Position numbers and translations under genes: made by a program. Below the pieces are notes generated by a model. The model did no database searches, had not been told where the DNA came from, and worked only from the letters and a program-made list of their open reading frames with translations. A stretch of DNA of 64,000 nt from Holosporales bacterium. GTDB lineage: Bacteria; Pseudomonadota; Alphaproteobacteria; RUG11792. Positions 49,440-50,753 of this stretch are shown piece by piece. Position 1 is the stretch's first letter. Each line of letters opens with the position of its first letter. The stretch is taken from positions 17,399-81,398 of the forward strand of contig JAIRZU010000005.1 of NCBI GenBank assembly GCA_031267075.1. Reading direction: 5' to 3'.

Positions 49440-50753
49440 CTATCTCCTCTCTATGTTATTATCATGAATGTTAAAAAATTCGGCTTCTCCTTCTAGGCCG
49501 GTAAAGAGTTCTCTTTCTGGGCCAGAGAGCCATACACTTGTCTTATTAGGATAGTTAGCTACTATGGCTTTCACATATCCAAATATCAGTGTTCTGTGTT
49601 TAAGATCGAGGTGGGCTACGACGTCGTCCAGGAGAAGTATCAGATTTCGATGATCTGCTCTGAGTGACATCATTACGAAGGCGAAGAACGCTCCGGTTAG
49701 CAACATCTTTTGCTCTCCAGCAGAGAGAAGCCGCGCAGGCATTTCATTAGACCTCCCTCGTAACCCTTCATAATCAGTCTTCTGCTGCGTCGATCCGGTG
49801 CTCGAATGCTCATGTACGTCTCTGTACACTCCGCTTCTCTGCTCCGTGTCTCCTTCCATAAGTTCTGATTCTGAAGGTTTCGAAAGAGGTCTACTATCTT
49901 CACGAACAACAATCCAGTCACTCCTATTAGGCCCGACCGCAGTTGAACCTGAGAAACAGTCTTTCTGTCGATTACGTTTGAGCTCAGATACATACTCATC
50001 AACAAGGCACTCTGAGCATGACGTCATTATACCATCCTCCAGCGGCCCTGTCATCCAATTCTTGAATCTTGGGAACTCAACGTCCGAGAGCTGCGACTCC
50101 TCGAGTTCGCGCACCACATCGATACGTCTATCGGCTATCTCTATTCCGAGAGCCGATATCTTATTTTCAACCCCCTGCAGCCAGGAGTCAATATCTTTTT
50201 TTAGCCCATGTTGCTCATTGCATTTTTTCAGAATCTTGATGCGTTCGCGAGTGAGCTTCTCGTAGGCCTTCACGTTGGCCCCATGCGCCTTATTCCTAAC
50301 GCAGCACAGCATATCCAGGAAATCGCGTCTAGCAGATGGAGACTGCATAAATAATCTATCCGACTCATACGTCAACCACAGGATGTAGTTTTCATCATAG
50401 AATGCAGTGAGGTTCCGCACTGCCTTATCACCAACCTTAAGATACCTCCTCCAGGTAGTTCCAGAAGAGGGAGGTGGATTCTCCCTGGCTATGTACCCCG
50501 ATGAGAACTCTGTAATTTCAGTTTCGAGTACGATGTTCCAGTATGGTTTGTTTGAGATATTATTGACCATCTCCTCATACCTGGAGCGCTTGAATCCACC
50601 GAGTTCAGAGAATGTGGATATCGCCTCTAGAACATTAGTCTTCCCCTCTCCATTTTCTCCGTAGAGGACTACGATATCACTGCCACCCTCCTCTAGGCTC
50701 AACCTGGCACTCTCGTAATTCCTGAAGTTGTTAATGAGCAAGTTCTTTATCAT
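49440..50753 (-). CDS. recF: DNA replication/repair protein RecF carrying an in-frame palindromic-element insertion
   Basis: GENGEGKTNVLEAI (Walker A), LSAGEQKML, LLLDDVVAHLD (Walker B). The ~47-aa insert lies between SDWIVVRED and MPARLLSAGEQ. Confidence 0.85.
   Translation of the reverse strand: MIKNLLINNFRNYESARLSLEEGGSDIVVLYGENGEGKTNVLEAISTFSELGGFKRSRYEEMVNNISNKPYWNIVLETEITEFSSGYIARENPPPSSGTTWRRYLKVGDKAVRNLTAFYDENYILWLTYESDRLFMQSPSARRDFLDMLCCVRNKAHGANVKAYEKLTRERIKILKKCNEQHGLKKDIDSWLQGVENKISALGIEIADRRIDVVRELEESQLSDVEFPRFKNWMTGPLEDGIMTSCSECLVDEYVSELKRNRQKDCFSGSTAVGPNRSDWIVVREDSRPLSKPSESELMEGDTEQRSGVYRDVHEHSSTGSTQQKTDYEGLRGRSNEMPARLLSAGEQKMLLTGAFFAFVMMSLRADHRNLILLLDDVVAHLDLKHRTLIFGYVKAIVANYPNKTSVWLSGPERELFTGLEGEAEFFNIHDNNIERR
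49750..49891. repeat. Palindromic element in recF (113-bp core at 49765-49877 plus outer arms)
   Basis: CCTTCATAATCAG...CTGATTCTGAAGG. Outer arms GACCTCCCTCGTAAC / TTTCGAAAGAGGTC. Confidence 0.9.

What the first reader, a model, noticed from the sequence alone, without database searches (positions are those of the whole stretch)
49750..49891. recF carries a full element in frame just upstream of its signature motif
The Walker A (GENGEGKTN) and Walker B (LLLDDVVAHLD) motifs are intact. About 47 residues (RPLSKPSESELMEGDTEQRSGVYRDVHEHSSTGSTQQKTDYEGLRGRS) are inserted between ...SDWIVVRED and MPARLLSAGEQKML. The DNA insert has the exact 113-bp core plus 14-15-bp outer inverted arms. The gene is otherwise uninterrupted and sits in the conserved recF-gyrB arrangement.
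Basis: partly seen in the sequence, partly recalled or inferred. Interest (0 to 1): 0.6.

Follow-up and report, generated by a model that had tools for sequence, protein, structure and literature searches.

The report
Selfish palindromic repeat inside recF
The DNA-repair gene recF of an uncultured Holosporales symbiont carries a 147-bp hairpin-forming selfish repeat, a relative of the Rickettsia RPE-1 element, inserted in frame in a loop beside its signature motif; this is a clear new example of a known phenomenon and the gene still looks usable.

Summary
recF (49440-50753, minus strand, 437 aa) is 49 residues (147 bp) longer than all 80 aligned homologues. The extra stretch (aa 287-335, DNA 49749-49895) is one full-length copy of a palindromic repeat with about 60 loci in this 883-kb genome. 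"Exact core" is true only for length: the core is 113 bp with no indels, but it has 14 mismatches to the family consensus.

NCBIfam RPE1 (TIGR01045) matches the inserted peptide. The same reading frame of the element sits in frame in DnaE, UvrC, RecJ, GlmS, GltX, Era, DapF, TpiA and others. That is the pattern known from Rickettsia, seen here in Holosporales MAGs.

The insert lies at the turn between two strands just before the signature motif. The AlphaFold model keeps the RecF fold (TM 0.80-0.85 to solved RecF structures) and leaves the insert disordered. Walker A, signature and Walker B motifs are intact, and a relative-rate test shows no acceleration. recR is intact and a recO-like frame is present.

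A congener has reduced recF to a roughly 380-bp remnant, and another has a broken recR, so constraint in this genus is weak.

Verdict: real, ordinary in kind, probably tolerated. It is a new member of a known kind.

The parts
49440..50753 (-). recF coding sequence, 437 aa, uninterrupted
   Evidence: ORF list. TIGR00611 scores 171.5 bits. PDB RecF sequence hits. AlphaFold model has mean pLDDT 89.4 and TM 0.80-0.85 (normalised to target) to RecF 5Z67, 5Z69 and 2O5V.
49749..49895 (-). Net in-frame insertion: codons 287-335 (49 aa, 147 bp), SRPLSKPSESELMEGDTEQRSGVYRDVHEHSSTGSTQQKTDYEGLRGRS
   Evidence: Absent from 80 of 80 aligned RecF homologues and from 13 same-family genomes. The closest insert-free RecF, P0001/L047, is 68% identical with the same neighbouring genes. 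pLDDT is 39-60 across the insert.
49750..49894 (.). The palindromic element itself: 142 bp GACCTC...GAGGTC plus TAC, 145 bp in all
   Evidence: nhmmer family of 76 hits (single-copy query) or 124 hits (family profile, both strands counted), about 60 loci. Alignment of 40 full-length copies. TIGR01045 RPE1 scores 32.4 bits on this copy against a cut-off of 30. Hairpin -60.5 kcal/mol, z = -9.
49765..49877 (.). 113-bp conserved core of the element
   Evidence: Full length with no indels. It has 14 mismatches to the consensus and is one of the two most diverged of 35 copies.
49750..49764 (.). Outer inverted arm, left (GACCTCCCTCGTAAC)
   Evidence: 12 of 15 positions are complementary to 49877-49891. 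It forms the outer stem of the predicted hairpin.
49877..49891 (.). Outer inverted arm, right (GTTTCGAAAGAGGTC)
49748..49749 (.). TA flanking the element; possible target-site duplication, left copy
   Evidence: Read directly from the sequence. Removing 49750-49896 leaves ...GAA GAT AAT GAA ATG..., which restores the 14-residue spacing between W280 and the signature Ser seen in the homologues. This is an inference.
49895..49896 (.). TA flanking the element; possible target-site duplication, right copy
   Evidence: By my reading of the flanks printed, 7 of 15 copies with a readable right end have TA three bases beyond GTCTAN.
49707..49724 (-). Signature motif SAGEQK (aa 344-349), 8 residues downstream of the insert
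   Evidence: S344, G346, E347, Q348 and K349 are invariant in the 81-sequence alignment. The preceding residue is L343, where C is nearly invariant elsewhere.
50634..50660 (-). Walker A GENGEGKTN (aa 32-40)
49605..49637 (-). Walker B and D-loop LLLDDVVAHLD (aa 373-383)
46872..49436 (-). gyrB, immediately downstream (3-bp spacer)
   Evidence: The same gene order is seen in L047 and G003.
50731..51501 (-). CDP-alcohol phosphatidyltransferase-like gene upstream, overlapping the recF start by 23 bp
   Evidence: It is 84% identical to its G003 counterpart and also present on L047. The functional name is my reading of the sequence; it was not scanned against a family library.

Best explanation
A non-autonomous, hairpin-forming mobile repeat inserted once into recF in this lineage. 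The repeat is about 145 bp with terminal inverted arms. Its translated peptide is recognised by the Rickettsia RPE-1 model. The insertion adds exactly 147 bp (49 codons), and the frame read through it is the stop-free, hydrophilic one (KPSESEL..GDTE.RSGVY..VHEHSSTGSTQQ.TDY). The gene therefore stays open. The extra peptide emerges from the turn between the two strands that precede the signature motif. By position these are beta7 and beta8 of domain II in the T. tengcongensis RecF description; that assignment is mine and was not made by superposition. The peptide is predicted to be a floppy excursion that leaves the ATPase fold intact. Insertions that landed in buried sites, or in the Cys-rich, hydrophobic or stop-containing frames, were presumably removed by selection, and what remains looks 'designed'. 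I judge RecF to be still functional at about 60-65%, but under weak constraint in a genus that is losing the RecFOR pathway.

Shown: the insertion, its family, the empty sites, the preserved motifs and fold, and the lack of rate acceleration.

Inferred: surface exposure, retained activity, and a TA-duplicating transposition mechanism.
For: Insertion and empty sites:
- 13 family genomes and 80 homologues lack it.
- The nearest RecF (68% identity, same neighbouring genes) reads ...SDWMVERA-SDGMPARLCSAGEQK.

Element family:
- 76 nhmmer hits with the single copy and 124 with the profile, about 60 loci.
- TIGR01045 RPE1 hits 42 places in the own genome, 7 over the cut-off, including this copy at 32.4 bits.

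Genome-wide in-frame habit:
- Of 38 element hits inside open frames of 300 aa or more, 33 use this frame and 5 use the open frame of the other strand (some hits are the same copy found on both strands).
- By my reading of the host translations, which were not scanned against a family library, the hosts include DnaE, UvrC, RecJ, GlmS, GltX, LysS, Era, RlmN, Dxr, DapF, MiaA, TpiA, CdsA and BirA.
- A second independent case, the esterase at 61531-62322, also shows a net gain of 49 aa against two congeners.

Structure:
- pLDDT is 94-98 on both sides and 39-60 in the insert.
- The insert lies between strand 279-285 and strand 337-339, followed by the signature helix 345-366.
- TM is 0.80-0.85 to solved RecF structures.
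- The signature motif is the loop between beta8 and alphaG (PMC5794780).

Functionality:
- 57 of 60 columns conserved at 90% or more are kept, the same number as in the insert-free sister.
- Own-branch changes are 18-23 against the sister's 26-37 with nine outgroups.
- recR is intact (188 bits) and a recO-like 206-aa frame is present.

Not an assembly artefact:
- The copy has private variants.
- A Logan contig from SRR14710922 reproduces the junction.
Against: - The insert is only 8 residues from the signature Ser, which forms the ATP-sandwich dimer contact. I had no coordinates, so I could not measure clashes with the partner monomer, DNA or RecR.
- The beta7-beta8 turn is length-invariant in 79 of 80 homologues, so it is not a naturally indel-tolerant loop.
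- C343, next to the signature Ser and nearly invariant elsewhere, is Leu here.
- Congener G003 has only a recF remnant of about 380 bp, and neither recR nor recO was found in it. G002 has a recR pseudogene. Loss of RecF function is evidently survivable in this genus.
- The recO-like match is weak (31.7 bits against a cut-off of 48.7), although the intact relatives score similarly.
- The TA target duplication fits recF but not the esterase copy, whose flanks read CA...TG.
- Similarity to Rickettsia RPE-1 rests on one HMM at 28.8-32.4 bits, close to its 30-bit cut-off. No Rickettsia sequence was compared directly.
Confidence: 0.78

Rival explanations
1. recF is already a dead gene. The insertion, or the C343L change beside the signature Ser, abolished ATP-dependent dimerisation. 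The open frame persists only because too little time has passed, or because keeping it open preserves translational coupling in the tightly packed upstream-gene/recF/gyrB unit.
For: The congeners have lost or broken recF, recR and recO. The insert is 8 residues from the signature Ser, in a turn whose length is fixed in 79 of 80 homologues. The C343L change is unique to this genome. This copy is among the most diverged in the family, so the insertion is not recent, and a selfish insertion into a dispensable gene would not be purged.
Against: There are no stops or frameshifts over 1,311 bp, even though the insertion is old (14 of 113 core changes). There is no excess of own-branch substitutions against the insert-free sister (18-23 against 26-37). 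57 of 60 highly conserved positions are kept. recR is intact and a recO-like frame is present in the same genome. The model has high confidence around the insert. The same element sits in genes I read as essential (DnaE, GltX, Era, GlmS), so insertion as such is compatible with function.
Confidence: 0.3
2. Assembly artefact. A repeat copy was spliced into recF by the metagenome assembler, and the real gene has no insert.
For: The genome is a 73-contig MAG. The element is shorter than typical read pairs and is present about 60 times, so repeats are a known hazard. Contigs of related MAGs and of the Logan assembly break inside the element.
Against: A chimera would have to rejoin the two halves of the same gene in order, in frame and at a loop. 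The copy carries private variants and occurs only once as an exact string. An independent assembler on run SRR14710922 gives the same junction with the same private variants. A second gene shows the same 49-aa gain.
Confidence: 0.03
3. The element has been co-opted. Either the RNA hairpin within the operon acts as a processing or stability signal that tunes gyrB expression, or the shared 48-aa peptide acts as a common surface tag on many proteins.
For: The hairpin is very stable (z = -9). There is a strong bias for one reading frame (33 against 5). The HEHSSTGST and RSGVY blocks are invariant across the window's copies. The element is conserved at 85-92% DNA identity in MAGs of at least two GTDB families.
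Against: DNA-level conservation, hairpin symmetry and selection against harmful frames explain all of these without any function. No U-tract follows the hairpin, so it is not an intrinsic terminator. There is no Rfam match. The insert is predicted to be disordered. Copies also lie in short or broken frames.
Confidence: 0.06

Closest known systems
Rickettsia palindromic element RPE-1 (Ogata et al. 2000 Science 290:347; Ogata et al. 2002 Genome Res 12:808; NCBIfam TIGR01045), as described in PMC10969869 and PMC3767692
   Same: It is a palindromic repeat of about 150 bp, present in many copies. It inserts in frame into unrelated housekeeping genes and encodes a conserved peptide. Its inserts lie in solvent-exposed regions. 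No transposase is known. The TIGR01045 profile matches 42 places in this genome, including the recF copy.
   Different: The host is a Holosporales MAG at 49% GC, not Rickettsia or Rickettsiales. The match covers only profile positions 1-36 of 48 and scores close to the cut-off (28.8-32.4 bits). A word-seeded search returned only Holosporales proteins and no Rickettsia ones. DNA-level homology to Rickettsia RPE-1 was not tested. I found no paper reporting RPE-1 in Holosporales, although NCBI annotation already labels small ORFs of these MAGs 'palindromic element RPE1 domain-containing protein'.
Wolbachia palindromic elements, WPE (Ogata, Suhre and Claverie 2005 Trends Microbiol 13:253), cited in PMC3767692
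   Same: They are protein-coding palindromic repeats inserted in frame in genes of another intracellular alphaproteobacterium. They show that the habit recurs outside Rickettsia.
   Different: It is a different sequence family. PMC3767692 links WPE to RPE-4, -6 and -7 rather than to RPE-1. No comparison was run here.
Bacterial MITEs with TA target duplication (Correia elements of Neisseria; IS630/Tc1-mariner-derived MITEs). This comparison is from my own knowledge.
   Same: It is short, has terminal inverted repeats, forms a hairpin, is non-autonomous and is abundant. The recF copy is flanked by TA...TA, and many copies end in TAGAC...GTCTA.
   Different: The TA duplication is not established, because TA may be part of the inverted repeat and the esterase copy has CA...TG. 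No partner transposase lies between matching ends in this genome. Correia-type elements are mostly intergenic, whereas this one is mostly intragenic and in frame.

Membership tests
RPE-1 (Rickettsia palindromic element 1, TIGR01045) | Translated peptide matches the RPE1 profile at or above its 30-bit cut-off | tested here: met
   The recF copy scores 32.4 bits when scored in place and 28.8 bits in the whole-protein scan. Seven own-genome copies are over the cut-off and 42 have E <= 1e-3. This is borderline, and only profile positions 1-36 of 48 are matched.
RPE-1 (Rickettsia palindromic element 1, TIGR01045) | Palindromic repeat of about 100-150 bp able to form a long hairpin | tested here: met
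   The element is 145 bp. Its outer arms are complementary at 12 of 15 positions. MFE is -60.5 kcal/mol, z = -9.0.
RPE-1 (Rickettsia palindromic element 1, TIGR01045) | Many dispersed copies, a large share inserted in frame in unrelated protein genes | tested here: met
   About 60 loci. More than 25 host open frames of at least 250 aa contain the element in frame; I read many of them as housekeeping genes from their translations.
RPE-1 (Rickettsia palindromic element 1, TIGR01045) | Insert lies outside the host protein's core and the host fold is kept | tested here: inconclusive
   The insert lies between two strands, with pLDDT 39-60 against 94-98 for the flanks. The RecF fold has TM 0.80-0.85. 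No coordinates were available to measure exposure or clashes in the dimer.
RPE-1 (Rickettsia palindromic element 1, TIGR01045) | Common descent with the Rickettsia copies (nucleotide-level or reciprocal similarity) | tested here: inconclusive
   The profile search of 5.8 billion proteins returned only Holosporales or unnamed proteins. A tblastn against plasmids found nothing. The sample of 400 class genomes gave matches over the cut-off only in the own genome and in one other 47-49% GC genome that carries this same element. No Rickettsia sequence was in hand.
RecF (TIGR00611; ABC/SMC-type ATPase) | Profile match at the equivalog cut-off | tested here: inconclusive
   The score is 171.5 bits against a cut-off of 172, split into two stretches by the insert.
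RecF (TIGR00611; ABC/SMC-type ATPase) | Walker A, signature (S-x-G-x-Q-K) and Walker B motifs | tested here: met
   GENGEGKTN, SAGEQK and LLLDD are present, and all invariant columns of the 81-sequence alignment are kept.
RecF (TIGR00611; ABC/SMC-type ATPase) | RecF fold | tested here: met
   The best Foldseek hits are RecF 5Z69, 5Z67, 5Z68 and 2O5V, with E 1e-17 to 1e-21 and TMt 0.80-0.85.
RecF (TIGR00611; ABC/SMC-type ATPase) | Partners recR and recO in the same genome | tested here: met
   recR scores 188 bits, over its cut-off. A recO-like 206-aa frame scores 31.7 bits, below the cut-off but similar to the intact relatives.
MITE of a TA-duplicating (IS630/Tc1-mariner-like) transposon | Terminal inverted repeats | tested here: met
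MITE of a TA-duplicating (IS630/Tc1-mariner-like) transposon | TA target-site duplication shown by comparison with an empty site | tested here: inconclusive
   At recF, TA|145 bp|TA, and removing 147 bp restores the homologues' spacing. At the esterase the flanks read CA...TG. Empty sites are available only at protein level.
MITE of a TA-duplicating (IS630/Tc1-mariner-like) transposon | Autonomous partner with the same ends encoding a transposase | tested here: not met
   Ten pairs of matching ends lie more than 200 bp apart. The five I opened enclose ordinary-looking genes and no evident transposase, judged by eye from the translations. The genome is 86% complete, so absence is not proven.
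Intein | At least about 130 aa, with Cys/Ser/Thr at its first residue and His-Asn followed by Cys/Ser/Thr at the C-terminal junction | tested here: not met
   The insert is 49 aa and ends ...GRS|N with no His-Asn, read directly from the sequence. The defining features are from my own knowledge.

The most novel reading that the evidence does not exclude
The element may be more than tolerated junk. One and the same roughly 48-aa peptide, with near-invariant RSGVY and HEHSSTGST blocks, would be displayed on surface loops of dozens of housekeeping proteins, RecF included. It is kept at 85-92% DNA identity in MAGs of at least two GTDB families. It would then act as a shared module, for example a common binding or degradation tag, or as a structured RNA signal inside operons such as the one containing recF and gyrB. 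Its presence outside Rickettsiales would reflect horizontal spread between unrelated intracellular lineages.
Probability: 0.06. Interest if true: 0.7.

Novelty: new member of a known kind. Interest (0 to 1): 0.33.

Why it matters
In-frame 'protein-coding palindromes' have been treated as a peculiarity of Rickettsia and Wolbachia. Here an RPE-1-type element has colonised Holosporales symbionts, a lineage reported to have become intracellular independently of Rickettsiales (PMC6447387). In this genome it sits in many housekeeping genes.

The recF case is a useful natural experiment. A 49-residue excursion lies 8 residues from the ABC signature motif, in a hairpin whose length is otherwise fixed. 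The gene's pathway is being lost in sister species. The case therefore bears on two questions: how much insertion an SMC/Rad50-type ATPase head tolerates, and whether such insertions mark the onset of gene loss in reducing genomes.

For annotation, the insert pushes RecF just under its equivalog cut-off (171.5 against 172 bits).

Tried and rejected
- Rfam, permissive E-value scan of 49650-49990: no family matched.
- tblastn of the consensus peptide against 72,556 plasmids: no match.
- Base-exact empty sites from other MAGs: the flanks of 25 element loci were too diverged from this genome to align. Empty sites could therefore be read only at protein level.
- Search for an autonomous partner: the pairs of matching ends more than 200 bp apart that I opened enclose ordinary genes, not a transposase.
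- A simple model of a 142-bp element plus TA (144 bp) was rejected. Two independent insertions each add 147 bp. A 145-bp element plus TA fits recF only.
- Intein, intron and terminator readings were rejected on size, junction residues and the lack of a U-tract.
- Ogata et al. 2002 (PMC186582) is not held in the library.
- Model coordinates are not exposed, so distances from the insert to the dimer, DNA and RecR interfaces could not be computed.
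Full report
**1. What is there**

The minus-strand ORF 49440-50753 encodes a 437-aa protein.
- It matches NCBIfam RecF TIGR00611 at 171.5 bits against a cut-off of 172, in two stretches.
- It matches the solved RecF proteins 2O5V and 5Z67-5Z69 at E about 1e-10 to 1e-11.
- Walker A (GENGEGKTN, aa 32-40), signature (SAGEQK, aa 344-349) and Walker B (LLLDDVVAHLD, aa 373-383) are present. They lie in columns that are invariant or nearly so in an 81-sequence alignment.
- gyrB (46872-49436) follows after 3 bp.
- A phosphatidyltransferase-like gene (50731-51501; my reading of the sequence) overlaps the recF start.

**2. The insert is real and specific to this lineage**

- In 13 genomes of other genera of the same family, the parts matching aa 1-286 and 337-436 adjoin in the DNA.
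- In a hand alignment, and in the alignment of 80 database homologues, this RecF alone has 49 extra residues, aa 287-335.
- The closest insert-free RecF is P0001, on a JGI metagenome contig (L047). It is 68% identical and has the same neighbouring genes. It reads ...SDWMVERA-SDGMPARLCSAGEQK, where this genome reads ...SDWIVVRED-[49 aa]-NEMPARLLSAGEQK.
- The 437-aa protein is on public record as a called protein.
- A Logan contig assembled independently from run SRR14710922 starts inside the element and runs into recF. It carries this copy's private variants. Assembly chimerism is therefore very unlikely.

**3. The insert is a member of a repeat family**

- The 142 bp at 49750-49891 find 75 other places in the 883-kb, 49% GC, 73-contig genome.
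- A profile built from 40 full-length copies finds 124 hits with both strands counted, about 60 loci.
- The window alone holds copies near 586, 15798, 15921, 31555, 39675 (with tandem partial copies), 54609 and 61843.
- The recF copy has the full 113-bp core (49765-49877) with no indels, but 14 mismatches to the consensus. Other copies have 4-11 mismatches, apart from one with 15.
- The outer arms are complementary at 12 of 15 positions.
- As RNA the copy folds into one long hairpin: -60.5 kcal/mol, z = -9.0.

**4. What kind of element it is**

- NCBIfam TIGR01045 ('palindromic element RPE1 domain') matches aa 288-323 at 28.8 bits in the whole-protein scan. Scored in place, it gives 32.4 bits, over the 30-bit cut-off.
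- The same model hits 42 places in this genome, a few in two congeners, and essentially none in 15 other genera of the family.
- In a sample of 400 genomes of the class, matches over the cut-off occur only in this genome and in one other small genome (G353, 47-49% GC, a different GTDB family). G353 carries the same element at nucleotide level, with profile scores of 108-133 bits.
- A scan of species-representative genomes found the element in MAGs titled 'Holosporales bacterium' (isolates Gx481_bin186, Gx485_bin74, Nc350_bin147, Nc350_bin178, Cd354_bin5, Gx481_bin72) and in 'Alphaproteobacteria bacterium MS502-96'.
- Those loci share only the element with this genome, at 81-97% identity.
- NCBI already labels many small ORFs of such MAGs 'palindromic element RPE1 domain-containing protein'.
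- I found no paper describing RPE-type elements in Holosporales.

**5. The in-frame habit is genome-wide**

- Three of the six frames of the consensus are stop-free.
- Of 38 element hits inside open frames of 300 aa or more, 33 use the hydrophilic frame seen in recF (KPSESELLLGDTERRSGVY.EVHEHSSTGSTQQETDY). Five use the Cys-rich frame of the other strand, and none use the third open frame. Some hits are the same copy found on both strands.
- By my reading of the host translations, which were not scanned against a family library, the hosts include DnaE, UvrC, RecJ, GlmS, GltX, LysS, Era, RlmN, Dxr, DapF (three copies), MiaA, TpiA, CdsA, BirA, a uracil-DNA glycosylase and a 5'-3' exonuclease.
- This is the pattern described for Rickettsia RPE-1 to RPE-3 (PMC10969869, PMC3767692).
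- The frame bias is what selection against harmful peptides would leave behind. That is an inference.

**6. Length and ends**

- The recF insertion adds 147 bp.
- An independent insertion in the esterase gene at 61531-62322 also adds 49 aa relative to congeners G001 and G002.
- At recF the element reads TA|GACCTC...GAGGTCTAC|TA. Removing 49750-49896 gives ...GAA GAT AAT GAA ATG.... This restores the 14 residues between W280 and the signature Ser found in the homologues.
- By my reading of the flanks printed, 7 of 15 copies with a readable right end have TA three bases beyond GTCTAN.
- This fits a 145-bp element with a TA duplication. The esterase copy, however, has CA...TG, so I treat the duplication as unproven.
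- No transposase lies between matching ends in this 86%-complete genome.

**7. Where the insert sits in RecF**

- With the 81-sequence alignment, AlphaFold2 gives mean pLDDT 89.4 and pTM 0.86.
- Ten-residue blocks on both sides of the insert score 94-98. The insert scores 56, 42, 39 and 60, with a weak helix at 321-331.
- The insert lies between strand 279-285 (carrying the conserved N-R-S-D-W) and strand 337-339. The signature helix 345-366 follows.
- Foldseek puts RecF structures first (5Z69, 5Z67, 5Z68, 2O5V), with TM 0.80-0.85 normalised to the target.
- In T. tengcongensis RecF, domain II holds beta7 and beta8, and the signature motif is the loop between beta8 and alphaG (PMC5794780). By position I take the two flanking strands to be beta7 and beta8, so the insert would be at the tip of that hairpin, at the end of beta8 away from the signature loop. 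This mapping was not checked by superposition.
- That position is consistent with a tolerated surface excursion. I could not obtain coordinates, so the relation to the dimer interface, the DNA cradle and the RecR face is untested.
- One caution: this turn has the same length in 79 of 80 homologues.

**8. Is the gene alive?**

For:
- The frame is intact despite an old insertion.
- 57 of 60 columns conserved at 90% or more are kept, the same number as in the insert-free sister.
- In Tajima-type counts with nine outgroups, this lineage has 18-23 private changes against 26-37 for the sister.
- recR is intact (188 bits) and a recO-like frame is present.

Against:
- Congener G003 has gyrB (86% identity) and the upstream gene (84%), but only about 380 bp between them. 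That stretch holds recF fragments (the start, about aa 166-252 and about aa 403-436) with stops. No recR or recO was found there.
- G002 has a recR pseudogene and no detectable recF or recO.
- The near-invariant Cys before the signature Ser is Leu here.

I put function retained at roughly 60-65%.

**9. Comparison with what is known, and verdict**

The thing works like, and by the one available profile belongs with, RPE-1. It is a selfish, hairpin-forming, protein-coding repeat. The host lineage is new for the literature I could search, but public annotation already carries the label. The recF case is a clean and instructive example, not a new kind of system.

Noticed in passing
L046 (G003:C13) 2600-2977: In a same-genus genome, recF is reduced to a remnant of about 380 bp between the upstream gene and gyrB. 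It keeps the start (MIKNL), about aa 166-252 and about aa 403-436, with stops and two large deletions. No recR or recO was detected in that genome.
   Followed up: yes
G002:C46:4627-4974: recR of another congener is a pseudogene (1 TGA and 1 TAG, 55 bits). The RecFOR pathway seems to be eroding across the genus.
   Followed up: partly
window 46872-49436 (gyrB), aa 640-669: gyrB has about 30 extra residues (around ...[26 protein letters not shown]...) relative to the congener G003, where the two flanking parts adjoin. It does not look like the palindromic element.
   Followed up: no
window 49725-49727 (codon 343 of recF): The residue just before the signature Ser is Leu. It is Cys in the insert-free sister and is nearly invariant in the other 79 homologues. 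It may be neutral, or linked to the nearby insertion.
   Followed up: partly
G353 loci L052, L057, L059, L061, L063: A small genome (about 0.9 Mb, 47-49% GC) placed in a different GTDB family carries the same element at nucleotide level. There were 145 first-look candidates, and RPE1 scores reach 44 bits, higher than here. This suggests spread between lineages, or an older origin than this genus.
   Followed up: partly
own genome C18:8063-9081 (DapF-like ORF, 383 aa): One ORF that I read as diaminopimelate epimerase holds three element copies. Two are in the common frame and one is in the opposite-strand frame.
   Followed up: no
window 49765-49877; own genome C26:270-403 and C29:3370-3497: The recF copy shares a variant block (TTCCATAAG, read as L-M-E-G, in place of TAGCAATAA, read as L-L-L-G) with two other copies, one of them in the ORF I read as GltX. 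This points to a diverged subfamily.
   Followed up: no
window 51642-53960 (-): The 772-aa ORF upstream of the recF cluster starts with what looks like a signal peptide. It has long internal direct repeats (241 nt at 85% identity, 132 nt at 83%) and proline-rich PPPPVP stretches. It looks like a secreted repeat protein.
   Followed up: no
own genome C69:30641-31653: Partial element copies with matching ends, 1,013 bp apart, bracket an acyltransferase-like gene that I read as DapD-like. Its reading frame begins inside the element (MMNNRPLSKPSESELLLGDT...).
   Followed up: partly
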